From the sequence record OR983333.1: a stretch of DNA of 64,000 bases; one strand, 5' to 3'. Position numbers and translations under genes: made by a program. Positions within the stretch are counted from its first letter, which is position 1; each line of letters begins with the position of its first letter. This document shows positions 3,839 to 48,770 of this stretch, one piece after another. The DNA is from Escherichia phage 1-6af. The notes under the pieces are model-generated. The model saw nothing but the letters and a program-made list of their open reading frames with translations, had not been told where the DNA came from and searched no databases.

Positions 3839-3862
3839 CCCTGCCTTCGGGCGGGGTTTTTT
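3839..3862 (+). terminator. rho-independent terminator after capsid module
   Basis: ccctgcc-ttcg-ggcgggg hairpin followed by T6. Confidence 0.75.
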
Positions 3863-3890
3863 CGTTTTAAGACCTATACAAGCCAGTGTG

Positions 3891-3899
3891 TAATGTATA
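3891..3899 (+). promoter_or_regulatory. TAATGTATA promoter-like motif (preceded by TAAGACCTA, 14 nt spacer)
   Basis: Identical bipartite arrangement recurs at 20181-20211; located 34 nt upstream of the next start codon. Confidence 0.5.
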
Positions 3900-3932: not shown

Positions 3933-4445
3933 ATGGCAATGCCAGATTTCAGAGAAGCTTTTACCTATGATCCAAATACAGGGCATCTTTTCTGGTCTAT
4001 GAGTAACATCTTTAATAAGCAGAAAGGACAACGTGCCGGGTGTATTGGCGACAGAGGTTATCGTAAAGTGACTTTTAAAAAGAAATCATATTTAGAGCAT
4101 AGGGTCATAGCTGAACTCTTTCTTCCTAAGGTAGAAGGGAAGGACTGTGTCAACCATAAGAATGGAATAAAAGACGATAACAGGATTGAGAATCTAGAGT
4201 GGTGTACTCAACAAGAAAATTGTACACATGCTTTTGAAACAGGCCTCTCAACACCTAGGAGTCTTGAGGATAACCCTAATTCCAAACTCACTAAAGAGCA
4301 AGTTCTCTTTTGTTTGGAGAACTACAAACCGAGAGATAGAGAGTTTGGAGCTAGAGCCTTAGCTAGAAAGTTTGGGGTCTCTAAAAGCACAATATCTCTC
4401 ATTACTAAAGGCGTAAACTGGAAGGAGGTTTATTATGATGCCTGA
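3933..4445 (+). CDS. HNH homing endonuclease (HNH_3-like with C-terminal HTH)
   Basis: YDPNTGHLFW...GYRKV...HRVIA...VNHKNG...DNRIENLEW motif pattern; free-standing between structural genes. Confidence 0.8.
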   Translation: MAMPDFREAFTYDPNTGHLFWSMSNIFNKQKGQRAGCIGDRGYRKVTFKKKSYLEHRVIAELFLPKVEGKDCVNHKNGIKDDNRIENLEWCTQQENCTHAFETGLSTPRSLEDNPNSKLTKEQVLFCLENYKPRDREFGARALARKFGVSKSTISLITKGVNWKEVYYDA

Positions 4446-5184
4446 CGTCCAATATCCCATCAATACCTATGGGTGGCTAAAGAAAGCCGTGGCCCTCTGG
4501 GCAGATAGGGACGATGACGAATTTGTTAATCAAATTCCAAACTTTATTAATTTTGCAGAGAAAGAGATTTATCGCAACTTACGTATCCCTCCTCTGGAAA
4601 AGGAAGTGTATCTGAGTATCAAGAATGGTATAGCATTCATCCCACCGGACTACTTGCAAGCTCAATGGATAATGAGAGCTAAAGATGGAGCAATATTCCA
4701 AGTAACTTCCCCAGAAGAGATAAGCTATCGTAAACAGCATGGCACAATTAACCCCTCTCACTGGAATAATCAACCTGTTAATTTTGCTCGTTTCGGAAGT
4801 CGTTTCTTGTTCTATCCACTGATTGATGCTGATACCCCTGTTTACCCTGAAGATGGAAGTCCTGCTATTCCAGCAGAGAACTCTGTAATTCTAAGCTATT
4901 ATGCAGATCCTCCGGAGTTTCACGCAGACGAAGATACTAGTGCAATACTTACGATTGCTCCAGAACTTCTTCTATACTTTACCCTTAGGCATGCATGTCT
5001 TTTTGTTCAGGATGATAACGGTGTTCAAAAATGGTCTGCGTTAGGTAAGGCTATTCTTGATGAGATGGTTGAGCAAGATAAGAAACAGGAGTACTCAGGT
5101 TCTCCTATTGCGATACCCAACAACATGACCAGACTTCAGAGTAGCCTGCCAGATATTTATGGAATACGTACCTCTAGAGTATAA
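4435..5184 (+). CDS. hypothetical virion protein (possible adaptor or tail tubular protein)
   Basis: Position in structural block; overlapping start with upstream gene. Confidence 0.3.
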   Translation: MMPDVQYPINTYGWLKKAVALWADRDDDEFVNQIPNFINFAEKEIYRNLRIPPLEKEVYLSIKNGIAFIPPDYLQAQWIMRAKDGAIFQVTSPEEISYRKQHGTINPSHWNNQPVNFARFGSRFLFYPLIDADTPVYPEDGSPAIPAENSVILSYYADPPEFHADEDTSAILTIAPELLLYFTLRHACLFVQDDNGVQKWSALGKAILDEMVEQDKKQEYSGSPIAIPNNMTRLQSSLPDIYGIRTSRV

Positions 5185-16479: not shown

Positions 16480-17532
16480 ATGTCTTTATTTGGAAAATCA
16501 GCTTCTAGCAAAATCACAGTGGCCCCTTCCTCTCAGGTTGATGCCCTGCTGAAGCAGATTGTTGCTAATGCTCAGAATATGCAGAACAACGATCCGGGAT
16601 TCATCTCCCAACAACTGGCTGGGTTTAATGGCAACCAACAAGGTGCTCTGAATAACTTAGCAGCTTCTACTACTCAGAAGCAATTGGCTGATATGTACAC
16701 ACCTCGTACACAGCAAGGGTTGGACCAATTAAACTCTCTTGCACAGCAGTATCAGAATATTGTCAACAGTGGTGGGGTTACAGCTGATGGTGTTAATAAT
16801 TTTAGCAAAGGTTTGAACAATTCAGCTTTAGCTCAAGCTACTAGCAAAGCAGCTTCCAACGTATCTCTCGGAAATGGTTCTGACTCAGGTTCTCTTCGTA
16901 GAGCTGCTGCTCAGGGTGCTGCTTTGAATGGTGCTAATACAAATCTATCTCGAACTATCAATGGAAAGAATATGGGAATTAATGCCCTTCAACAAGACCA
17001 AAACTTCCAGAGAGGCTTACTTGGTGCTCAGTTGGGGTTAGCTGGACAGAACCTTAATCTTGGTGCACAAGGTGTTCAGGCAACCCAACAAGCTATCCAG
17101 AATCAACTCTTGGCTGGTAATTTACAACAGCGACAAGATCAAGCTCAAGCTGACATTAATTGGCAGAATGCTATTGGCTCTAGGCAGTATGGGTGGAATC
17201 AGCTTAACAACCAGCTTAATGTATTAAACAGTGTAAGCCCAATGGCTGGGTACACAATTAAGAATGCCGCTCCGGGTATTAACACAGGACAGCAGATTCT
17301 CGGTGCTGGTATCACTGGATTAGGTATTGCAGGTCGTATGGGTGCTTTCTCTCCTAACCAACAGACTCAGAATGCTTGGAGTTCCTATAACAACTCAGGT
17401 GGGCAATCTGGAATGGCTGGTCCTATGATTGGAGGTTCTAATCTTTCTCAACAGAAAGGTCAGTCTAACTGGTTATCCACAGCAGGTAGTAATATCTTAG
17501 GTGGTGTCTTAGGGGCATTCGGAGCAAACTAA
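16480..17532 (+). CDS. Q/N/G-rich internal virion protein
   Basis: Low-complexity Gln/Asn/Gly-rich 350 aa ORF; paralogous to next gene. Confidence 0.45.
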   Translation: MSLFGKSASSKITVAPSSQVDALLKQIVANAQNMQNNDPGFISQQLAGFNGNQQGALNNLAASTTQKQLADMYTPRTQQGLDQLNSLAQQYQNIVNSGGVTADGVNNFSKGLNNSALAQATSKAASNVSLGNGSDSGSLRRAAAQGAALNGANTNLSRTINGKNMGINALQQDQNFQRGLLGAQLGLAGQNLNLGAQGVQATQQAIQNQLLAGNLQQRQDQAQADINWQNAIGSRQYGWNQLNNQLNVLNSVSPMAGYTIKNAAPGINTGQQILGAGITGLGIAGRMGAFSPNQQTQNAWSSYNNSGGQSGMAGPMIGGSNLSQQKGQSNWLSTAGSNILGGVLGAFGAN

Positions 17533-18526: not shown

Positions 18527-20182
18527 ATGCAACAGACAACTTACGCTCAGGTTAGAAGTCGTGACCCGAGAAATACTTTCTATGGTGTTAATCCAGGAGC
18601 GGCTTCGGCCTCTCCTTATATGGCTAGACCGACTCAGACAGCAGACATTTCTATGTACCAACGTCCTGCTGTACCTTCATCTCTTGCGGGTCTTGTCTCT
18701 CAGGCAGAAGAAGATCAGAATGCTATGATTAATCCGGGATTCCAGCAACGTCTTATGGAACAGCAGAATCAAGGAACCCCTACCAGTCTTCAGGGTATTG
18801 ATATTGGAGCACCAGCCCCTGTAGCGGCTAATCCTAACCTATCCACTGATCAAGGTTTACAAGATGCAGGGCTTATGCCTAGTGACCCTCTTCCGGTAAC
18901 ACCTCCCCCTAAACCACTAGAAGCTGGTCCTATGGAGTTTACTCCTTCTCAGGTGGAACAGGCACAAGGTGTGATTAACACTCTTGCTCAAGGACAAGAC
19001 ACTGGTGATGGAATGGCTGCTGCTACTCGTGCTAAAGATCAGGAACGTGTTAACAATGATATCTTGCAAGTTGCTAAAGCTAAAGACCCTTCAGAAGCTT
19101 GGAACAAACTACAGAAAGAACCGTTCTATCAGAACTCTAGTTTCTACACAGGTTTGATGGGTGTAGGTCTTTCAATCATGTCAGGTAAGTCTCCTATCGA
19201 AGCTTTCCAGATTGGTCAGGGAATGGCTAATCAAGATGAGACTAAGAAGCAACTGGAAGCTAACCGTGATGCCCTGATTGAACAAGGTTTCTCTCAAGAC
19301 TCGATCGCAGCTGCTATTGCTAACGGAGACCCTTCTCTGCTGAAGATGAAAGCTGTAGACCCTGCTCAGAAAGAAGCGTTGTATGCTGCTCGTGAAGAAC
19401 GACAGAATGCTGAATGGGATAGACGTCAACAGATTCAAGAGCAGACTATGCGTGAGCGTGCTGAGGAAACTCGTCGAGCCGCTGAAGAAAGAGCTAATAT
19501 GAACTTTGAACGTCAGAAAGAGTTGATTGGGTATCGTGATAAAGTTAAGGCTGAACGTGCTGAACAAGCTGCTCAGAGTTTTAACTTTAACCCGAAAGAA
19601 GTTCGTCTTGCTCAGAATACAGCTGAAGGTACGGTTGCTAAGCAGTGGGCAGAGAAAGGTGGTCTGTTTAACCAGTCTAACAAAGACTTGGATTTGGCTG
19701 ATAAGGCTGTTAAGGATAAAGACTATCAGACAGCTCGTTCTGCTTACATGCAGGCTATCATGAACTCCGCAAGGGCTGAAATCGGTGCTACTCGTTCTCT
19801 TACCGAAGAAGATTTGGGGCACTTTGCAGAAGACCCATCAATCTTCATTCGTGTTGGCAACAAGTTTGCACTTAAATCTGGATGGCGTCCTACTGATTCT
19901 GCTCTTGCTTATGCTCGTAAGCAAGCTAACGTTGGTCACACCTCTGCAATGAAAGGTGTTGCTGATGCTAAGAGAGCTACGATTGAAGCTTACATCGGTT
20001 CTGGTATGGATAAGAAGAGAGCTACTGCATTGGTTAACCGTGCAATCCCTTCTGGCGGTTTCTACGATCCTCTAGGTGTTTTCTCTGAACAAGCGGAAGA
20101 AGCAGTTGGTGGTGCAGCAACCAATCCTAAGCTTAATGGTGCTTTATCAGCTGTCGAAGACACTAGCTGGTTCACGCAATAA
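18527..20182 (+). CDS. internal virion protein (551 aa)
   Basis: Position; Pro/Gln-rich N-terminus, charged helical C-terminus. Confidence 0.45.
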   Translation: MQQTTYAQVRSRDPRNTFYGVNPGAASASPYMARPTQTADISMYQRPAVPSSLAGLVSQAEEDQNAMINPGFQQRLMEQQNQGTPTSLQGIDIGAPAPVAANPNLSTDQGLQDAGLMPSDPLPVTPPPKPLEAGPMEFTPSQVEQAQGVINTLAQGQDTGDGMAAATRAKDQERVNNDILQVAKAKDPSEAWNKLQKEPFYQNSSFYTGLMGVGLSIMSGKSPIEAFQIGQGMANQDETKKQLEANRDALIEQGFSQDSIAAAIANGDPSLLKMKAVDPAQKEALYAAREERQNAEWDRRQQIQEQTMRERAEETRRAAEERANMNFERQKELIGYRDKVKAERAEQAAQSFNFNPKEVRLAQNTAEGTVAKQWAEKGGLFNQSNKDLDLADKAVKDKDYQTARSAYMQAIMNSARAEIGATRSLTEEDLGHFAEDPSIFIRVGNKFALKSGWRPTDSALAYARKQANVGHTSAMKGVADAKRATIEAYIGSGMDKKRATALVNRAIPSGGFYDPLGVFSEQAEEAVGGAATNPKLNGALSAVEDTSWFTQ

Positions 20183-20202
20183 GACCTAAGTCCTGCCTTC
20201 TA

Positions 20203-20211
20203 TAATGTATA
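20203..20211 (+). promoter_or_regulatory. TAATGTATA promoter-like motif (preceded by TAAGACCTA, 14 nt spacer)
   Basis: Same bipartite element as at 3869-3899; 39 nt upstream of ATG 20250. Confidence 0.5.
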
Positions 20212-20249
20212 TAGGGGGTAGGACATTTTTATTTATAAAAGGAGACGTT

Positions 20250-23200
20250 ATGGCTAACATTAAACCGTGGGAAGAAGCTTCCAAAGCTCCTGCGTATCTG
20301 AATGCCTCTCCGGAGCAACAAGCTCAAATGAGAGAACAATATAAGGCAGCAGGTGGCTCTATTCCTGAGGAACAACCAGTAGCACAACCACAACAAGAAG
20401 AACGTGGTGCTATAGGTGAGTTTGCTCAAGGTGTGTCAAATGCTCTTCAATCTGGTGGTGCAAATATTGCAGCTAGTGCTGCTAAAGGTATTGGTGGTTT
20501 AGTTGAGATTGGTGAGAATCTAGCTGGAGCACAAACTAGTTATGGTAAGCGTATCCAAGAGAACTCTCAGAACCTTCTGAAAGAACGTATGGATAAGATT
20601 GAGGATGGGATTGGTAAAACTGTTGGTCAGTATGCTGGCGTTGCTGGTGATATTGGTATGACTGTTGCTAACCCATTGGCTGCTGCTGCTATCATCGCAG
20701 GTCGTGAGACAGGTCGTGCATATGCAGACCAAACCCCTGAAGAGGGAGAAGATAAATCTATTCTAGATGCGGCCTTAGTTGGTGGTGCTAACTATGCGGC
20801 TCAGAGAATTCTTCCGGGCGCTGTTGGTACAGCTGAGTCCACACTTGGACGTATCGGTCAGAACGTTGCTAGTAACGCAGTGGCTGGTGCTAAAGGTGGC
20901 GCTCTTGTAGGTGCTGCTGAAGCTCAGAACAAGCATGGAGATGATACAACCTTTGCTAATGTATTAGAGGGTGCTATCGAAGAAGGTGCTATGGGTGCTG
21001 CATTTGGTGGTGCAGTTGGTGGGGTTCATGGTTTGATTAGCCGTCCAGACTCTGCTGTCTTCAAGAATACTCCAGAGTATGCGAAGACTGATATTGCTGC
21101 TGATGACGAACTAATTCGCAGTGCTAAGAATATTGATGAATTGAAAGAAGCCTACTCTAAAGCTGAAACTGCTAACGCTGCTTCTGCTCTGAATCTTCTG
21201 GATGAGAATGGATTCCGTATTACAGATGCTGTTGCTGTAGATTCTCCTGCTGCTCAGCGTATCCTCAATACTGACCAAGCTCGCGCTGAGAAAGCTGCTT
21301 CCGTTCAGAAAGAACATTCCAACATTCCGGGCCTTAACCCTTTAGCTTCTCCTGCTAAAACTCGTGGTAAAGCATTCGCTGATAACGAGCACAACCAGAA
21401 GCAGGCTGTTGCTATGAAGGATGCAATGGCTGATTATACCAAAGACAACACGAAAGCTCTTACAGATGTTCTAGATAATCTAGACCGTGAATTAACATCT
21501 CTCCGAGCTTCTGGTGATTTTACTGGTAGTCCGATTGATATTAAGAATCGTACACAAGCTGACCGTGATTTCATTGATGCTTACAAGACTTTCTACAATG
21601 AAGCAAATCGATTCAAAGCTCGTGATGGTGAAGACTTTAATAACTTTGTAGAGAAAGCTGCTGAACTACAGAAGATGGCTGATAATGTTTCTCCAGAGAT
21701 GAAGAAAGCTATCGGTGGGTTGAAGAAACTGAAAGGTATGCCTGAAGGTTTTAATCCTATCCAAGATGCTTACACTCTGAACAATACAGCTAAGTTCATG
21801 AGCAATCAAGACCGTGGTTGGACTTCCCTGACTGATGATGGATTCCGTGAGGCTTCTTCACCTAGTCTGGTAATGAATACTCTCGGTGCTGCTAAGTATG
21901 CTCTGAATCGCTTCTCTTCTCAGCGTGCTCGCTCTCAACGTGTTAAGCAACAAGAATCTAACAGTGAAGCTATCCGCTCTCTTGCTCGTGGTGATTTGGA
22001 AGTTGCTCGTGCTAAATCTACTGCTGATGAAGCTCGTGCTAAGATGGAAGAAGAACCAGTTGTTGATGACATTAAATTTAAGACGCAAAATGACGTGGAA
22101 ACCGAACCGGTTCGGGAGTCTTCTTCTAGTACTGTGACAGAAGAAAATCCTCCTTCTTCTGCTCCTCAAGAAACTCCTCTTACAGCTCGTGATTTAGTTG
22201 CTCAAAGACGTGCTATCCGTCAGGCTGAACAGCGTCGTGCTGAAGAAGAGGCGTTGGCTGCTCAAGAAGCTCCGGTCGAACAAGCTCCACAGGCTGAACC
22301 TCTCCCTGCTCGCAACCCTTTAGAGGAGCGTCGTGCAATGGAACAGCAACGTGCTCAAGAAGAGGCCGCACAAGCTCCAGAACCAACCGTAGAGGAACCA
22401 ACAGTCAAAGCTGAGCCATTACCTGCCCGTGCTCCTAAAGCTCCTAAGGAGGCTGTACAGGATGTTAAACCGGCAAGTGGTGTAGAACGTTTAGCTGCTA
22501 TGTCTAGTGCTGCCCGTCAGGCTACTAAAGATCGTGCAGAACGTTTTGCTCGTTCTCTGTACTCTAAGGCTGCTAAGGCTAAAGCTACCGCTGAAAACTT
22601 CTTGGCTTATAAAGGTGATCCTAAGGAATTGATGCGTCGTATTCGTCAGGAAGACAATGCTATCAACACTGAACGTCATGAAGAAATGGCTCGTAACCAG
22701 CTGGCTTCACAGCAAGGTATTGCTACTGCTAAGAACAACACTGTACGAACTAATTTTGCTGAATGGGTTAAGGAACGTGGTCTGCCAGAAGACATTGCTA
22801 CTAAGGCATTACGTGCTGAAGAGAAAGGTTTAGGTGGGAACGTTACTAACTTGGATAGTCTGAAACGTCGTGCTGAAAGGTTGTATCAGAAGCAGCGTGA
22901 AGATGAGTTTGATAGATTGTATCAACAAGCTCTAGAAGAGAACAAAGCTTTCGATAATAAGAATGCTCCTAAACTGGTTGACCAGAAGAAAGAGCTTCAG
23001 TCTGAGATTGATGCTTTGATTGATTCAGAACCTTTACGTCCTGCTCAGAAAGATGCTATGCGCAAGTTGATGAATGACTTTGTAGATGGAAAGTTTAAAT
23101 CTTCAGAGAAAGCTGGTAGGGAAGAGGCTTTGGAAGTTGGTCAGATGAAGGATATTTGGGATGGGTTTATTAACACCTATAACAGAGAAGTGAATGCCTT

Positions 23201-27540: not shown

Positions 27541-29026
<1,486 letters not shown>

Positions 29027-29027
<1 letters not shown>

Positions 29028-29287
29028 TATTTTATTCCACGTTCTTTCAGAGCTTCTAACAATCCATTGTGATTGGCAGCACATTCTGTGTACTGGTCCT
29101 GATACCACTCCAATGTAGTGGCTAGTGCTTTTCCTTGAGCACTCTCTAAAAGAGGTAGGTCAACCCTACATTCAGCTTTTAGGTTTGTTGGTAAGGGCAT
29201 TGATTGCCTGCTGTTGTCGCTCATTGAACAAGCTGACATACTCATCACTAGCGCAGACATTATAAAAAACTGGTTTAGTTTTCTCAT
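29027..29287 (-). CDS. o-spanin (Rz1-like outer-membrane lipoprotein)
   Basis: Signal peptide with lipobox-like MSAC, Pro-rich mature region; overlaps i-spanin gene in another frame. Confidence 0.5.
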
Positions 29288-29522
29288 AATGCATCTCTTT
29301 ATAAACGGTTTCCGTGTTCTTCTTCCAGTTAGATAAACCGGTAAGAACTCTCTGAGCAACTTCATCAGCTGCTCTATTTCTTTCAATCTCTAACTCTTGT
29401 TGATGTTTCTCTTTATCCAGATTACTACTGTCTGTTTGGTACTCGTTAAACTTCATACCACCAAAGAACACAAGAGCTGAGAAAACGATAAACCCTAAGT
29501 TATCACTTAATGTGTTTTGCAT
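29172..29522 (-). CDS. i-spanin (Rz-like)
   Basis: N-terminal TM segment then charged coiled-coil; start revised to ATG 29522 after terminator. Confidence 0.5.
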   Translation of the reverse strand: MQNTLSDNLGFIVFSALVFFGGMKFNEYQTDSSNLDKEKHQQELEIERNRAADEVAQRVLTGLSNWKKNTETVYKEMHYEKTKPVFYNVCASDEYVSLFNERQQQAINALTNKPKS

Positions 29523-29534
29523 GTTGTCTCCAAC

Positions 29535-29558
29535 GAAAAAAGCCACCCGGAGGTGGCT
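29535..29558 (-). terminator. rho-independent terminator (minus strand)
   Basis: agccacc-tccg-ggtggct hairpin followed by T6 on minus strand. Confidence 0.6.
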
Positions 29559-29580
29559 AAGCTATAACAAGGAGAGTTAT

Positions 29581-29994
29581 TTATATGAATTTCTGCATAC
29601 CTTTGATACGAGGGTTATCATCACCAACTCTCGATTTACAGTAAGCGATAAAAGATTCAGTATTGAGGTTATCTTTTTGGGAACCCCACTGAAGGTTGTC
29701 TGCTCTATTGTTGCTCGGATTATCATCCAGATGCATAACAACAGCGTTAGGAAAAGGTTTATCACCGTGAAAAGTCTCACACACTAAGATATGAATCCTT
29801 TTCTTAAACTTTCTTTTCTTGTTTACAAACACCATTCTTCCATCTTTCTCTCTATATCCGCTATATGGTTTTCCTACGAAAAGCCTAACTCCACCATTAT
29901 TCATTATGGCTGTGAAAGGCTTAATCTTAACTCTACCAAAAGATGATACGGAAAGGAAATCATAATAGGGATGATCTTTCCAGACTTCTTCCAC
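29581..29994 (-). CDS. HNH homing endonuclease
   Basis: HGDKPFPNAVVMHLDDNPSNNRADNLQWGSQKDN HNH_3-type motif. Confidence 0.7.
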   Translation of the reverse strand: MEEVWKDHPYYDFLSVSSFGRVKIKPFTAIMNNGGVRLFVGKPYSGYREKDGRMVFVNKKRKFKKRIHILVCETFHGDKPFPNAVVMHLDDNPSNNRADNLQWGSQKDNLNTESFIAYCKSRVGDDNPRIKGMQKFI

Positions 29995-30003
29995 TATTTA
30001 TCC

Positions 30004-30750
30004 TCAAAATGGGCTATCGTTGTCGTCTTCATAAGTAGAAGCAGGCTCTTTATCAATCGTAGGGATTGAAGGAGTAGCTTCTTTCTGATCTGTTTCAGAA
30101 GCACGAGTAATTTCACGACCAGCCAGAGGCATGTTCTTAGCGTCATTAGCTTGAGTAAGCAGGTTGCGCTGGAACGGGAACATCAGTTGATAGGATGCTA
30201 CGTTCTCATCGGTTTCAGCATACGGTTCGAAGAATACCAGAGGACTACGAGCTTCACCAACTGCTGCACGATATTTGGTTGGGATTGGAGAAATGGTCTT
30301 GATGGAGTTTTTAACTTCACCAGCTTTGTTAGTGTAAGAGTTAACCAGAATGTTAACAGGCTGACCTAACAGAACATCCTTGAACCAAGACAGATCACCT
30401 TTCAGTGCTTGAATACTTGGGTCAATCATCTTGCAAAGATCAAGAATACCAGAGTTCTTAGCTCGTGGGTTTACATCATAGCTCTTGAACTGGCAAGCCG
30501 GACGTGGTTCTAATGCCTTACCATCGGAATCTTTACCAGTAGCATCAACACCAATCAGCTCGAAAGCTAAATCCATACGGAAAGCCGGATTCTTAGGAGT
30601 TACTGCTTTGGTCTTCGGGTCAATCCAAGGGTCACGATTGTGAACACCCAAACCTACTACACGAACGATACGTGCTTCGTACTCACCATCAGGGATTACA
30701 TCGTAGTTGGATTTACGGGAAGAAGTTGCGATAGTTGGAATCATAGACAT
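30004..30750 (-). CDS. single-stranded DNA-binding protein (T7 gp2.5-like)
   Basis: Acidic C-terminal tail ending ...YEDDNDSPF with terminal Phe; in replication block; large upstream promoter region. Confidence 0.5.
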   Translation of the reverse strand: MSMIPTIATSSRKSNYDVIPDGEYEARIVRVVGLGVHNRDPWIDPKTKAVTPKNPAFRMDLAFELIGVDATGKDSDGKALEPRPACQFKSYDVNPRAKNSGILDLCKMIDPSIQALKGDLSWFKDVLLGQPVNILVNSYTNKAGEVKNSIKTISPIPTKYRAAVGEARSPLVFFEPYAETDENVASYQLMFPFQRNLLTQANDAKNMPLAGREITRASETDQKEATPSIPTIDKEPASTYEDDNDSPF

Positions 30751-30809
30751 ATTTTAATTTCCTTATTTAATTTGAAAGATTGTTGCTCTCTTTGAGCGGT
30801 TATGTATAG

Positions 30810-30818
30810 TATACATTA
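30810..30818 (-). promoter_or_regulatory. TAATGTATA promoter-like motif (minus strand), part of palindrome ATGTATAgTATACAT
   Basis: Revcomp of tatacatta; ~60 nt upstream of SSB gene start. Confidence 0.45.
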
Positions 30819-30881
30819 CGCTTATACCGATAAGAGTACTATATAATATAAGTATCTTTGGTAGTAGATATAACACACTAG

Positions 30882-30890
30882 TAATGTATA
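30882..30890 (+). promoter_or_regulatory. TAATGTATA motif on plus strand with no downstream ORF
   Basis: Exact 9-mer; faces a 280-bp AT-rich ORF-free stretch. Confidence 0.3.
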
Positions 30891-31296
30891 TATTGTATAG
30901 CTGATAAAGTTATTGCAGGCTTGTATATTGGGCAATTCACAGAATCCCTTGCAAGTACCGAAGGGCAGGAGCCACCTGCGAGATAAAAATAGAGAATTAA
31001 GGAATCCTTGATTTAGGTTGTAGGGACTCCTAGGGACTTTGATTCTCTATTTAAAAGAATATTAATTACTTATTACCTAAATAATTAACTAACTTACTTA
31101 AACCAAATTCAAGAACAATAGATAAAAAGATTATTCCTAAGAAAGCTAAAAAGTAAAGGATATAAGTTACCATTCAAGTAAACCTTTAAAGTTAGATTGT
31201 TCTACTATCCTCTGATAGTGAAGATTAGAATCAGCTTGTTTCTTTAACATCTCATTATATTGATCTCTGATAGAGTCTTTATAAACTACAGGTTCT

Positions 31297-31800
31297 TTAA
31301 ATAATGAGATCTTGTTCTTTTCTTCTTTCATCGAAAACCTTCCTAATCTCTTGCAGAGAAACAGCTTTATAATTAATTTGCTCCATTGATGTACAGAAAT
31401 ATCTCCAATCATCAATTACATGATTATGGGTATGAGCATAAATATTAAACTTCCCTCTCATTTCATCAGTGTGAATAGGAATATGAGTTACCCAAAACTC
31501 TTTATATTTATAATCACCAGAGATTCTACGGAAGACTTTCATCATATCAGGGAGAAGTTCTAACCTGTCATGGTTCCCTAAGACTAGATGCTTCTCTCCT
31601 TTTACTTCAGCGATGATATCAAGGGCATACTTTTCAAACACCCAATCACCGGTAAAGAATATTTTGTCTCGCTTAGTTACATGATCAAATGCAGCTAGAA
31701 TTGCTTTGTCATGTTCTTCGATGGTTTTAAATTGCTTACGAAAACTACAGATGTTGCGATGACCTAAGTGACCATCTCCTGCAAAATAAACTTCAGCCAT
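31297..31800 (-). CDS. calcineurin-like metallophosphoesterase
   Basis: GDGHLGH, GDW, GNHD, HTH motif series. Confidence 0.6.
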   Translation of the reverse strand: MAEVYFAGDGHLGHRNICSFRKQFKTIEEHDKAILAAFDHVTKRDKIFFTGDWVFEKYALDIIAEVKGEKHLVLGNHDRLELLPDMMKVFRRISGDYKYKEFWVTHIPIHTDEMRGKFNIYAHTHNHVIDDWRYFCTSMEQINYKAVSLQEIRKVFDERRKEQDLII

Positions 31801-34271: not shown

Positions 34272-35963
34272 ATGCATATCAATTACCTTAGCACAACGAA
34301 CCCCATCCCTCTCAATCCACTTGTTAAGGAACATCATAGCATATTTCATAACAACAGCACCAGCACATTGCAGGAGTGTGTTAAGGGCTTTATGAACCAT
34401 AACTTTACCAGTGGCATCTCGTCTCATTGTAATCTTACGACCATCAACACCAATCAAGTATCCTTGAGCAGCCTTTTCTGTCATACGATCAATGAGGATT
34501 GCAATACATGGGTTCTCTGCCAAGAAACGTGCTCGCATCACTGAACCTTCGTCAGCCCCACCACCTACAATTGAACCAAGCTTAGCATCGCCAGCACCGT
34601 AGTTGAATGCATAGATAAACGTTTTAGCGTTGTCACGAGTAGGAAGACCAGCAAGTTTCTGGTTGTGGGAGTGGATATCACCTTCAAGGAGAATATCACG
34701 ATACATAATAGCAGAAGCTAAACCACGTTCTGCCAGAGCTTTCTTAGCTGGGTTGTTCTCTTCAATTGCCTCAGCAAGCATATCCCTACACTCTTTAATG
34801 AGGTAGTGAGCGAGCATACGAAGTTCAAGCCCAGAACCATCATACCCTAAGAATACTTCTTTACCAGCGGGTATGTAATATTTGTAAGCACCTACAGGTT
34901 TGTCTTTCTTCCCCGGTTTACCTTTCTCATAAATTACGTTAGTACCTTTTCGTATATAACAACCATCAGGAACAACGTTAGTAATAACGAAAGGACGAGA
35001 ATGATCACTGTCTGAGTTATAGTCAGACTCAAACAAACTGCGACACTCGTGACCAAACAAACCACGGGAGGGAATATTAACCACGATACGATGTTTGAAT
35101 CGAAAAGTCGGCGTAGCGCAGCTGTTAGCTTCTGCCGAAAGTTTACCATCTTCGCGTTCCTTTGCTATGAGTCCACTGATAAGACCTAGCCTGTGAGCCG
35201 CTACAACGCGTCTCTTAAGCAAACTTCCGACACTCCCTAGCTCACCCCCTAACCCTTCTTCAAGAGTCTCCTCGAGGTTTGTAGGAGCTGTAGGCCACTT
35301 GTTTGAAGTGGCTAGTGCTTTCTTAATCTCATCAAACGTTACAGGATTACGTCGATTCGGGTTTAATCCCAAACCAAACACGTAAGCCTTCATATAGTTC
35401 TTAGTTTTAAACCTAAAATGCTTTTCTAAGAACTTCTTAATATCAGCGTCAACCATCTCGGCTGTCTGCTTCTGCTTAGCATTTCCTCGCATCCAAGCAG
35501 TATACCATGCTTGGTATGTTCCATACTTTCTCATATCTTTCTTAATTTCGAAAGTATTCCAAGGCTTCTTAGATACGTTAAACTCTGGAGGAAGAAAGCC
35601 CTCATCCATAAGAGCTTCTTTAACTCGTGCATCTTTCGATGGGTCAAAGTCTACGTATTCGACACAGGTGAAAGCTCCACCAATGTCTTCTCTCTTCAGC
35701 CCAACTCTATCACAATAGGCTTGAGGCCACTTCTGCAAAGCTCCAGACTTCTTAAACGGCTTCATATAAGTAGAGCCATCTAATCTCATCTTAGGTAAGA
35801 GAGGAATCAACTCTCTGTCAATATTAACAATAATCTCTTTAAGGAGGTGAACATACCACCGAGCATTTCTTCGGTTGAAACTCACTCCGTGCTTTGCTTG
35901 CTTAGAGATTATATCAGCGACAGTCATCTCTGTCAAAAATGGAAGAGCGTCCGGGTTGCTCAC
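34272..35963 (-). CDS. DNA polymerase polymerase-domain (T7 gp5-like) exon 1
   Basis: DGSGLELR, GDIHSHN, LPTRDNAKTFIY, YGAGD, ALNTLLQCAG blocks match the T7 DNA polymerase palm/fingers. Confidence 0.8.
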
Positions 35964-37253: not shown

Positions 37254-37571
37254 TTATGATGAGCTTAAAGCTCCTTTGCGTGCTCCAGCTGCTTTTCCAG
37301 CTCGATCACCACTTTTGCCGCCGTTTGAACGGTTTGAGCTGACTGATTCAACACGTAAGTTGCTTGACGCATTAGAACCTCCAGACTTGACAGCTCGTTT
37401 GTGTCCAACGTCTTTACCTCTGACAGCAGCTTTTCCATCGCGCTTTTCAACGATGCGACGTGCACGGTGGCGCTGAGCATCTCCGCTCTTGCTCCCAATT
37501 CCCGTTTCACCGCGCTTGATCGCAGTCCTTCTTTCTTGTGCATAATCTCTTTTTCCTACATGATCTGCCAT
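37254..37571 (-). CDS. highly basic Gly/Ser/Arg/Lys-rich protein (105 aa)
   Basis: Perfect RBS aggaga 6 nt before ATG 37571; overlaps two other open frames. Confidence 0.4.
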   Translation of the reverse strand: MADHVGKRDYAQERRTAIKRGETGIGSKSGDAQRHRARRIVEKRDGKAAVRGKDVGHKRAVKSGGSNASSNLRVESVSSNRSNGGKSGDRAGKAAGARKGALSSS

Positions 37572-37900
37572 TAGATTTCTCCTGATTCTCTTTGATTAAA
37601 GGTGTGGATGGCGTGGCAATTAGCACACAATATCCTGCACTTCCTCATCTCTTCTTTTACTTGAGATAAAGATCTGGTGTGCCCTTTGGAGAGTTCGAAT
37701 GACTTAGTTAATGGATTTAAATGATCAAACTGAAGAGCAGATGCGTGGCCCTTAAAGCCACACTCAGAGCATCCATAGAATGTTTTAACTCTACGAATAA
37801 AAGCTAGTTGCCTAACTCTTCTTCTCTCGTTATCTGCCTTTCTCTTATCTCTATTTCCTGGGTCGGCCCATCTACACGAGTCATTGCAAAACCTCTGCAT
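37571..37900 (-). CDS. HNH endonuclease
   Basis: CSECGF...QFDHLNP...CANCH motif. Confidence 0.6.
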   Translation of the reverse strand: MQRFCNDSCRWADPGNRDKRKADNERRRVRQLAFIRRVKTFYGCSECGFKGHASALQFDHLNPLTKSFELSKGHTRSLSQVKEEMRKCRILCANCHAIHTFNQRESGEI

Positions 37901-38194
37901 TATATACTTCGTTACAAATGGTACCTTACAGGTTTCACATTCCTTGTGGTAGGTTGCTATTTGGACCTCCTACTCAGTGTAAATAAAACCCTCTTCTATC
38001 ATTGACTTTTGAGTACTAATCACTCCACCCTCCCGGTGGTTCAAAATTTTCTTGAACATCCAGAACCTCTACATCATCACTCAGGTAGGTACTCTTGCCA
38101 AAACCTAAAAGCCAGCGAGCTTTATCAATATCTTTATAAAAATTAAGAGCTGCACTACCATCATAACACTCACGAACTATAATACCGATTTTCA

Positions 38195-42159: not shown

Positions 42160-42442
42160 TACGTGCGATATTATCCATTACCTGCTGAGTAATTACGATG
42201 CAGTTCTGTGGGTCTACTGACTTAGAACGCCCCATTTCAGGGTCATACACCTTAACTCGCTTAGCAGTTGAACCTGTAACCTGAAGAACCTTCAACAGAT
42301 ATCCCTGATTACCAATAGACCAAGCAACAACATCACGATTCTTGATAAAGCGACCAAGCATATCACGATGATAAAACTGTTGCATCACCTTGGATTTTGT
42401 AATCTCTTCAGTGGGCGGGGCCACTTTACTCAAATCTAACAT
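42113..42442 (-). CDS. hypothetical protein (109 aa)
   Basis: ORF with promoter-like motif 40 nt upstream. Confidence 0.3.
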   Translation of the reverse strand: MLDLSKVAPPTEEITKSKVMQQFYHRDMLGRFIKNRDVVAWSIGNQGYLLKVLQVTGSTAKRVKVYDPEMGRSKSVDPQNCIVITQQVMDNIARNVANSVELDGENPNA

Positions 42443-42481: not shown

Positions 42482-42490
42482 TATACATTT
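42482..42490 (-). promoter_or_regulatory. AAATGTATA promoter-like motif variant (minus strand)
   Basis: One mismatch to TAATGTATA; 40 nt upstream of gene start 42442. Confidence 0.35.
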
Positions 42491-42514
42491 GAGAGTTACC
42501 ATATCTACTACCAA

Positions 42515-48339: not shown

Positions 48340-48525
48340 TTACTCTGTAATAAAGATTTTGATTACGCCACAGATCGCTGCACTTTCAAACACTGCAATA
48401 GCTTCACTTCCTTGAAAGAAGGCCACTTTGCCATCAGTGAAGTTAAACATATCAGCATCGAGGTCCATAGCTCGCATTTCACCAGCTGCATTGGTATCTT
48501 TAAACAGAACTTTATACTTATTCAC
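48340..48525 (-). CDS. hypothetical protein (61 aa)
   Basis: ORF in cassette. Confidence 0.3.
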   Translation of the reverse strand: MNKYKVLFKDTNAAGEMRAMDLDADMFNFTDGKVAFFQGSEAIAVFESAAICGVIKIFITE

Positions 48526-48770
48526 AGATAGGTCACTCCTTTGTCTTGTTGTGCTTCAGTGATGATACGTTCTACACATTCCATAGAATACTTATCACCA
48601 CGTTTCAGGAAAGTTACAATTGCAGAGAATTGATTACCAATCATTCGCTGATTAGTAATACCCCACTCCTCACACAATTTACGCAACTCTTTACGAGAGC
48701 CTACAATAAGAGGCTCTTTTTGTTCTATCATTCCATTTTGTACTAGATCTTCCAATGAAAACATATCCAT
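48522..48770 (-). CDS. hypothetical protein (82 aa)
   Basis: ORF in cassette. Confidence 0.3.
   Translation of the reverse strand: MDMFSLEDLVQNGMIEQKEPLIVGSRKELRKLCEEWGITNQRMIGNQFSAIVTFLKRGDKYSMECVERIITEAQQDKGVTYL

What the first reader, a model, noticed from the sequence alone, without database searches (positions are those of the whole stretch)
3869..3899. Recurrent TAATGTATA promoter-like motif, twice in a bipartite TAAGACCTA-N14-TAATGTATA form, plus a phage sigma factor gene
The exact 9-mer TAATGTATA occurs at 3891 (+), 20203 (+), 30882 (+) and 30818-30810 (-), with a one-mismatch variant at 42490-42482 (-). All are intergenic and four of the five lie 34-60 nt upstream of a start codon. 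At 3869 and 20181 it is preceded by the identical TAAGACCTA with exactly 14 nt between. TAAGACCTA also occurs fused to a TATAAT-like box upstream of the sigma gene (28633-28648, -). An ECF-like sigma gene (27920..28567) is present. From memory, phiEco32-type phages use a gp36 sigma recognising TAATGTATA; I cannot verify this here.
Basis: partly seen in the sequence, partly recalled or inferred. Interest (0 to 1): 0.55.

Follow-up and report, generated by a model that had tools for sequence, protein, structure and literature searches.

The report
Known phiEco32-type phage sigma promoters
The repeated TAATGTATA boxes are the already characterised middle and late promoters read by the phage's own sigma factor (gp36) in a phiEco32-like coliphage, so the finding is correct but not new; one extra, apparently unreported copy points at a conserved non-coding stretch.

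Summary
The window is a phiEco32-like Kuravirus (99.3% to phage FH3, about 97% to phiEco32). The motif counts and positions are as described and exceed chance. The sigma ORF is 213/214 identical to phiEco32 gp36 (PDB 9m7y_F). Its co-activator gp79 is also present (81/82 identical).

Four sites are positional orthologues of the published gp36 promoters P13, P26, P40 and P68, whose published consensus is tAATGTAtA.

The 'bipartite' form is also real. TAAGACCTA spans -38 to -30 and covers the two positions (-37, -34) that the gp36 C-terminal domain contacts in the 2025 cryo-EM open complex. All six published promoters and the new site carry T-R-R-N-A at -38 to -34.

The TAAGACCTA copy near the sigma gene lies inside gene 37 and is out of register. 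It is probably not a gp36 promoter.

Two points go beyond the papers I could read:
- A seventh exact site at 30882(+), divergent from P40, shares a 14-nt -35 block with P68 and is conserved in all relatives examined.
- That site faces a conserved, unannotated, roughly 160-nt non-coding block whose 5' hairpin starts at the predicted +1.

P58 is missing from this phage.

The parts
3868..3899 (+). P13 orthologue (late promoter). It reads TAAGACCTA (-38..-30), 14 nt, then TAATGTATA (-15..-7). Predicted TSS is about 3906. It sits directly after a terminator-like hairpin and T-run (about 3840-3865).
   Evidence: The 45 nt upstream of the box and the first 48 nt downstream of it are identical to phiEco32 around 9101. 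Exact motifs are shown. P13 is listed in PMC8948821 Table S3.
20180..20211 (+). P26 orthologue (late promoter). It reads TAAGACCTA-N14-TAATGTATA. Predicted TSS is about 20218, and the gene 26 homologue starts at 20250.
   Evidence: Identical to phiEco32 around 26014 over the 125 nt shown. P26 was used as a late promoter in vitro and was activated 4-fold by gp79 (PMC12276001). The box is conserved in ECBP2 and SU7 while the upstream flank differs.
30810..30841 (-). P40 orthologue (middle promoter). TAGTA lies at -38..-34 (30841-30837) and TAATGTATA at 30818-30810. Predicted TSS is about 30803, and gene 40 starts at 30750.
   Evidence: Identical to phiEco32 around 36640(-) over the 125 nt shown. 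Listed as P40 in Table S3.
30858..30890 (+). Seventh gp36-type site ('Pdiv'), divergent from P40. It reads TTGGTAGTAGATAT (30858-30871; TGGTA at -38..-34), 10 nt, then TAATGTATA (30882-30890). Predicted TSS is A30897. It is not among the six published promoters in the sources I could read.
   Evidence: It shares the same 14-nt -35 block at the same spacing as P68. Both boxes are kept in 17 of 17 homology-selected relatives while the spacer varies. It is absent from Table S3.
30897..31056 (+). Conserved unannotated non-coding block downstream of Pdiv, a candidate RNA of about 160 nt. It has a 5' hairpin (30897-30913), a central segment with two alternative inner modules among relatives, and a long hairpin (30987-31053). 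Read on the - strand, that long hairpin is followed by TTTTTAT.
   Evidence: The 5' hairpin shows two pairs with compensatory changes and G-C/G-U variation. Identity across 15 phages is 0.89-0.99 for 30940-31059, against 0.56 beyond 31060. There is no Rfam match. No feature is annotated under the match in the records listed.
42482..42514 (-). P68 orthologue (middle promoter). It reads TTGGTAGTAGATAT (42514-42501; TGGTA at -38..-34), 10 nt, then AAATGTATA (42490-42482). Predicted TSS is about 42475, and gene 68 starts at 42442.
   Evidence: With the first base of the 9-mer numbered -15, G falls at -37 and A at -34, the two bases contacted in the P68 cryo-EM open complex.
27920..28567 (-). Phage sigma factor gene (gp36 homologue). 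The annotated start corresponds to the second ATG, at 28564.
   Evidence: 213/214 identical to PDB 9m7y chain F. All published DNA- and RNAP-contact residues are present at the published numbers.
48522..48770 (-). gp79 homologue. gp79 inhibits the sigma-70 holoenzyme and activates the gp36 holoenzyme.
   Evidence: 81/82 identical to PDB 9m7y chain G.
28586..28615 (-). Sigma-70-type promoter candidate for the sigma gene, TGGACA-N18-TATAAT, inside the 3' end of gene 37.
   Evidence: It matches 11 of 12 consensus positions and the sequence is shown. It fits the published descriptions for SU10 and phiEco32 (PMC4281155; PMC8948821).

Best explanation
These sites are the middle and late promoters of a phiEco32-like Kuravirus. 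Host RNA polymerase core bound to the phage sigma factor gp36 (27920-28567, -) recognises them. The sigma2-like N-terminal domain of gp36 reads AATGTA at -14..-9 and opens DNA from -11. Its sigma4-like C-terminal domain reads the -35 region, with R187 contacting the purine at -37 and Y186 contacting the T opposite A-34. gp79 (48522-48770, -) removes sigma-70 region 4 from the polymerase and stabilises the gp36 C-terminal domain, which switches transcription from early to middle and late genes. In this window the sites are P13 and P26 (late, structural genes on the + strand) and P40 and P68 (middle, - strand). TAAGACCTA is the -35-region element of the two late promoters. The mechanism is taken from published work on phiEco32. 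Applying it to this phage is an inference from near-identity of the proteins and promoter sequences.
For: - The window is 97-99% identical to Kuravirus genomes.
- The sigma ORF is 213/214 identical to gp36 and gp79 is 81/82 identical. All contact residues are retained.
- The four sites are identical or near-identical to phiEco32 P13, P26, P40 and P68, in synteny.
- The published consensus is tAATGTAtA, with six promoters. Published contacts are at -14, -13, -12, -11, -37 and -34.
- The exact 9-mer occurs 4 times against 0.48 expected.
- The composite T-R-R-N-A-N19-AATGTA occurs 6 times against 0.94 expected, reached in 1 of 300 shuffles. Five of the six hits are the intergenic sites.
- The same -35 pattern holds in all six phiEco32 promoters. 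It also holds in the ECBP2 equivalent of P58, whose upstream sequence is unrelated.
Against: - No transcript 5' ends were mapped for this phage, and function is inferred by orthology.
- The T-R-R-N-A pattern was derived from the same promoters it describes. Exceptions exist: P40 in ECBP2 and SU7 is shifted by one base, and one metagenomic P40 reads CGGTA.
- The bare hexamer AATGTA is not enriched (46 against 42 expected).
- P6, also a late promoter, lacks TAAGACCTA, so that 9-mer is not a general late-class signature.
Confidence: 0.93

Rival explanations
1. The sites are ordinary host sigma-70 promoters, read as AT-rich TATA-like -10 boxes, and are not phage-sigma promoters.
For: The SU10 paper proposes sigma-70 promoters near some middle genes. 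The consensus scan finds a weak TAGATA-N18-TATATT (9 of 12) overlapping the 30882 site.
Against: None of the sites has a good TTGACA/TATAAT pair. Sigma-70-like hits in the region are no more frequent than in shuffles (8 against 9.7). The orthologous phiEco32 sites are reported to be transcribed by the gp36 holoenzyme, while gp79 shuts off sigma-70.
Confidence: 0.03
2. The recurrence is chance or a remnant of duplication in AT-rich intergenic DNA and has no function.
For: One-mismatch variants occur at chance frequency (21 against 17.8). The two extra TAAGACCTA copies, in genes 37 and 53, look like chance.
Against: The exact 9-mer and the composite motif both exceed the shuffles. All five sites are intergenic, although only about 8% of the window is non-coding. 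Both boxes are conserved in phages whose sigma is only 79% identical, while the spacers and flanks change.
Confidence: 0.02
3. TAAGACCTA is a binding site for a separate late-gene regulator that sets late timing, and is not merely the -35 region read by gp36.
For: Nine bases are identical between the two late promoters, well beyond the T-R-R-N-A minimum. They stay identical in ECBP2 and SU7. P68 and the 30882 site share a different extended block. The papers I read do not state what separates middle from late gp36 promoters.
Against: P6, also late, has TGGGAGGCT instead. The cryo-EM contacts at -37 and -34 already account for part of the box. No candidate regulator was identified here.
Confidence: 0.15

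Closest known systems
phiEco32 gp36-dependent middle/late promoters P6, P13, P26, P40, P58 and P68 (Pavlova et al. 2012, as cited in PMC4331800 and PMC8948821; structure in PMC12276001, PDB 9m7y)
   Same: The -10-type consensus is the same, the genomic positions match, the sigma and gp79 are essentially identical, and the bases at -37 and -34 are the same.
   Different: This phage lacks P58, and P6 lies outside the window. An HNH gene sits between P13 and gene 13. The site at 30882(+) is not in the published list. The 2022 paper described these promoters as single-element, whereas a shared T-R-R-N-A at -38..-34 is seen here.
Salmonella phage 7-11 gp47 late promoters, GTAAtg-(16)-aCTA (PMC8948821)
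   Same: Both are bipartite promoters for a phage-encoded sigma in a related phage, located at similar genome positions.
   Different: The consensus differs, 7-11 has no gp79 homologue, and it has no middle class.
T4 middle promoters with AsiA and MotA (sigma appropriation)
   Same: A small phage protein displaces or remodels sigma-70 region 4, and a second phage protein supplies new upstream specificity. This analogy is drawn in PMC12276001.
   Different: Here a complete replacement sigma, gp36, reads both elements. In T4 the host sigma-70 is retained.

Membership tests
phiEco32 gp36-dependent promoters | The tAATGTAtA element is present | tested here: met
   There are four exact copies and one AAATGTATA.
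phiEco32 gp36-dependent promoters | Positional orthology with published promoters | tested here: met
   3891 = P13, 20203 = P26, 30818(-) = P40 and 42490(-) = P68, with identical or near-identical flanks and synteny. 30882(+) has an orthologue at phiEco32 36704(+), but that site is not in the published list.
phiEco32 gp36-dependent promoters | The cognate sigma gp36 is encoded, with its DNA-contact residues | tested here: met
   213/214 identical to 9m7y_F. E79, H80, Y83, R84, W90, S91, S94, N95, Y186 and R187 are all present.
phiEco32 gp36-dependent promoters | The co-activator and sigma-70 inhibitor gp79 is encoded | tested here: met
   81/82 identical to 9m7y_G.
phiEco32 gp36-dependent promoters | The -35 region has a purine at -37 and A at -34 (the contacts seen on P68) | tested here: met
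   TAAGA, TAGTA and TGGTA occupy -38..-34 in all five window sites.
phiEco32 gp36-dependent promoters | Transcription starts 6-9 nt downstream of the box and depends on gp36 | not testable with these tools
   This needs primer extension, dRNA-seq or in vitro transcription.
Sigma-70 housekeeping promoters | TTGACA-N16-18-TATAAT | tested here: not met
   None of the five sites has a good match. The only strong match in 28400-31600 is 28615-28586, upstream of the sigma gene.
ECF (group 4) sigma factors | Pfam Sigma70_r2 and Sigma70_r4 domains above threshold | tested here: not met
   Sigma70_r2 scores 18.3 bits against a cut-off of 24, and there is no region 4 hit. The cryo-EM paper describes sigma2-like and sigma4-like folds. 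'ECF' is therefore an annotation label and not a demonstrated membership.
Known RNA families (Rfam 15) for the block 30897-31056 | A covariance-model match at or near the gathering score | tested here: not met
   Only chance-level hits were found (E of 0.35 or more), in the window and in ECBP2 and MN05.

The most novel reading that the evidence does not exclude
The seventh site (30858-30890, +) is an active gp36-dependent promoter. It would drive a conserved RNA of about 160 nt (30897 to about 31056) of unknown function, which may continue as an antisense transcript into gene 41. The block is found in every one of the 98 phage records returned by the similarity search. The pairwise-shared extended -35 blocks may also contribute to promoter class or strength: TAAGACCTA in the late promoters P13 and P26, and TTGGTAGTAGATAT in P68 and the new site.
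Probability: 0.4. Interest if true: 0.5.

Novelty: already known. Interest (0 to 1): 0.27.

Why it matters
The core finding matters little, because it re-identifies an experimentally and structurally characterised promoter class in a close relative of the model phage.

Three smaller observations have some value.
- A common T-R-R-N-A at -38..-34 reconciles the older 'single-element' description with the 2025 structure, and gives a better search pattern for annotating Kuravirus and Suseptimavirus genomes.
- An exact-consensus seventh site with the P68 -35 block faces a conserved, unannotated non-coding region. If transcribed, it would be the first non-coding RNA assigned to this phage group, and one that is easy to test.
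- P58 is dispensable: HNH-associated replacement removed it in this phage, and no match was found in SU7. The middle operons can therefore be rewired.

Tried and rejected
- Rfam scans of the 30600-31500 region, and of the ECBP2 and MN05 loci, gave only chance hits.
- Thermodynamic folding of the central part of the candidate RNA is unremarkable (z = -0.76 on +, +0.73 on -). Only the 5' hairpin and the long 3' hairpin stand out.
- A search for complementary targets of the candidate RNA inside the window gave only 11-mers, which is chance level.
- IMG/VR and metagenome pattern scans returned only close kuraviruses, so covariation power stayed low.
- Distant gp40 homologues (67-69% identity, L009-L011) have no comparable intergenic region.
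- GC skew follows gene orientation and gives no sign of an origin at 30.8 kb.
- TAAGACCTA-TAATGTTTA at 28648-28631 was rejected as a gp36 promoter for the sigma gene. It lies in coding sequence, the -35 register reads TTATC, and the -9 base is wrong.
- The full texts of Pavlova 2012 and Savalia 2008 are not held. 'Unreported' for the seventh site therefore rests on secondary sources and Table S3 of PMC8948821.
- A paper mentioning Kuravirus and RNA-seq did not map phage transcripts.

Full report
**Observation.** TAATGTATA occurs exactly four times, at 3891(+), 20203(+), 30882(+) and 30818-30810(-). The expectation is 0.48, and no shuffle of 100 reaches four. AAATGTATA lies at 42490-42482(-). 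With one mismatch allowed the count is 21 against 17.8 expected, so only the exact or near-exact copies carry signal. TAAGACCTA occurs four times against 0.63 expected.

**Identity of the window.** A 4.5-kb stretch around the sigma gene is 99.3% identical to Escherichia phage FH3 and about 97% identical to SU10 and phiEco32. BLAST against the phiEco32 genome shows collinearity over nearly the whole window. The sigma ORF (27920-28567, -) is 213/214 identical to gp36 in the cryo-EM entry 9m7y, and it keeps every residue reported to touch DNA or RNA polymerase. The ORF at 48522-48770(-) is 81/82 identical to gp79 of the same entry.

**What the sites are.** Comparison with phiEco32 gives the following correspondences, with identical or near-identical flanks:
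- 3891(+) corresponds to 9101, upstream of gene 13.
- 20203(+) corresponds to 26014, upstream of gene 26.
- 30818(-) corresponds to 36640, upstream of gene 40.
- 42490(-) corresponds to 46870, upstream of gene 68.

PMC4331800 quotes TAATGTATA as the experimentally determined consensus and names genes 6, 13, 26, 40, 58 and 68. PMC8948821 repeats this, and its Table S3 lists exactly those six promoters. PMC12276001 used P26 as a late promoter and P68 as a middle promoter in vitro, and solved the P68 open complex.

**The bipartite form.** If the first base of the 9-mer is numbered -15, P68 has G at -37 and A at -34. These are the two bases contacted by R187 and Y186 of the gp36 C-terminal domain, and their mutation abolishes transcription. 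With that numbering TAAGACCTA spans -38 to -30.

All five window sites, and all six published phiEco32 promoters, carry T-R-R-N-A at -38..-34:

| Promoter | Bases at -38..-34 |
|---|---|
| P13, P26 | TAAGA |
| P6 | TGGGA |
| P68 and the 30882 site | TGGTA |
| P40 | TAGTA |
| P58 | TAGCA |

In the window the composite T-R-R-N-A-N19-AATGTA occurs six times against 0.94 expected, a count reached by 1 of 300 shuffles. The bare AATGTA hexamer is not enriched (46 against 42).

The pattern was read off these same promoters, so the best independent support comes from elsewhere. In ECBP2 the P58 equivalent has an unrelated upstream sequence but still reads TGGAA. In ECBP2 and SU7 the TAAGACCTA box of P26 persists where the flank upstream of it has changed. 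Exceptions exist: P40 is shifted by one base in ECBP2 and SU7, and reads CGGTA in one metagenomic phage.

The 2022 paper described gp36 promoters as single-element and lacking a -35 element. The 2025 structure showed a -35 contact on one promoter. The shared pattern seen here links the two descriptions.

**What is not a promoter element.** The TAAGACCTA at 28648-28640(-) lies within the last codons of the gene-37 homologue. The adjacent TAATGTTTA has the wrong base at -9, and TTATC sits in its -35 register. The plausible promoter for the sigma gene is the sigma-70-type TGGACA-N18-TATAAT at 28615-28586, which agrees with published descriptions. The copy at 35180(+) is inside the DNA polymerase ORF.

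**The seventh site.** The copy at 30882(+) lies 64 bp from P40, box start to box start, and points the other way. It shares TTGGTAGTAGATAT with P68 at identical spacing. It has an orthologue at phiEco32 36704(+) but is absent from the six-promoter lists. PMC4331800 searched only the gene-sense strand of intergenic regions, which would miss it.

In 17 relatives retrieved by homology, both boxes are kept while the spacer varies: TGGTAGTA is invariant and TAATGTATATA nearly so. This set includes Suseptimavirus phages whose sigma is only about 79% identical. In one phage about 120 bp is inserted between this site and P40.

The predicted +1 (A30897) is the first base of a 6-bp hairpin. Two of its pairs show compensatory changes, and one alternates between G-C and G-U. 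The G-U pairs favour the + strand.

The following roughly 140 nt contain no plausible ORF. They are as conserved as the neighbouring coding sequence (0.89-0.99 identity for 30940-31059, falling to 0.56 beyond 31060). They end in a long hairpin (z = -3.3) that, read on the - strand, is followed by a T-run.

Relatives carry one of two alternative inner modules. Twelve of 98 records cover at least 80% of a query carrying the longer one. The sigma search and the intergenic-block search each return 98 phage records. No feature is annotated under the match to the central and 3' segment of the block in any listed record.

The evidence for a functional RNA remains limited. The central fold is not better than shuffles, there is no Rfam match, and no target was found. 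I rate an active promoter here as likely, given its sequence identity to proven elements. I rate a functional non-coding RNA at about 0.4.

**Differences from phiEco32.** P58 is missing. The phiEco32 segment 42902-43110, which holds P58 and the 3' end of gene 59, is replaced by 37573-37990. That replacement contains an HNH-like ORF. An HNH_3 endonuclease ORF (3933-4445) now follows P13, ahead of the gene-13 homologue. P6 lies upstream of the window.

**Verdict.** The feature is an already known promoter class in a close relative of the model phage. Residual interest lies in the unreported seventh site with its conserved non-coding block, and in the shared -35 pattern.

Noticed in passing
window 30858-31056 (+): An exact gp36-type promoter, divergent from P40, faces a conserved and unannotated non-coding block. 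The block's 5' hairpin begins at the predicted +1. Relatives carry one of two alternative inner modules (12 of 98 records cover at least 80% of a query carrying the longer one).
   Followed up: partly
window 37573-37990 (-): The phiEco32 segment holding promoter P58 and the 3' end of gene 59 is replaced by 418 nt that contain an HNH-like ORF (37571-37900; Pfam HNH 21.0 bits, just under the cut-off). No gp36-type box was found upstream of the gene-58 homologue. SU7 also shows no P58 match.
   Followed up: partly
window 3933-4445 (+): An HNH_3 homing-endonuclease ORF (E = 6e-13) sits between P13 and the gene-13 homologue (4435-5184). Its first five codons are those of phiEco32 gene 13.
   Followed up: partly
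window 17194-17225 (+); phiEco32 23028; L050 23329; L051 22935: A composite TGGAA-N18-TAATGTATT lies inside the gene-23 (DNA ejection protein) homologue. It is kept in four genomes despite silent changes in the spacer. It could be an internal promoter, or simply protein-level conservation combined with the roughly one chance hit expected.
   Followed up: no
L050 34369 (-), L051 33597 (-): In the Suseptimavirus genomes ECBP2 and SU7, a near-consensus TAATGTAAA lies 21 nt upstream of the sigma gene's start codon, but without T-R-R-N-A at -38..-34. This may be autoregulation, and it has no counterpart in the window.
   Followed up: no
window 20190-20224 (+): An imperfect inverted repeat (GTCCTGCC ... 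GGTAGGAC) brackets the -10 box and the predicted start of P26. A similar repeat (GTCCTATCTC ... GAGGTAGGAC) is present in ECBP2 and SU7. It might be an operator.
   Followed up: no
window 30980-31019: The left half of the long hairpin between gene 41 and P40 is almost invariant (0.987 mean identity) across 15 phages. That is more conserved than the adjacent coding sequence and is unusual for a plain terminator.
   Followed up: no
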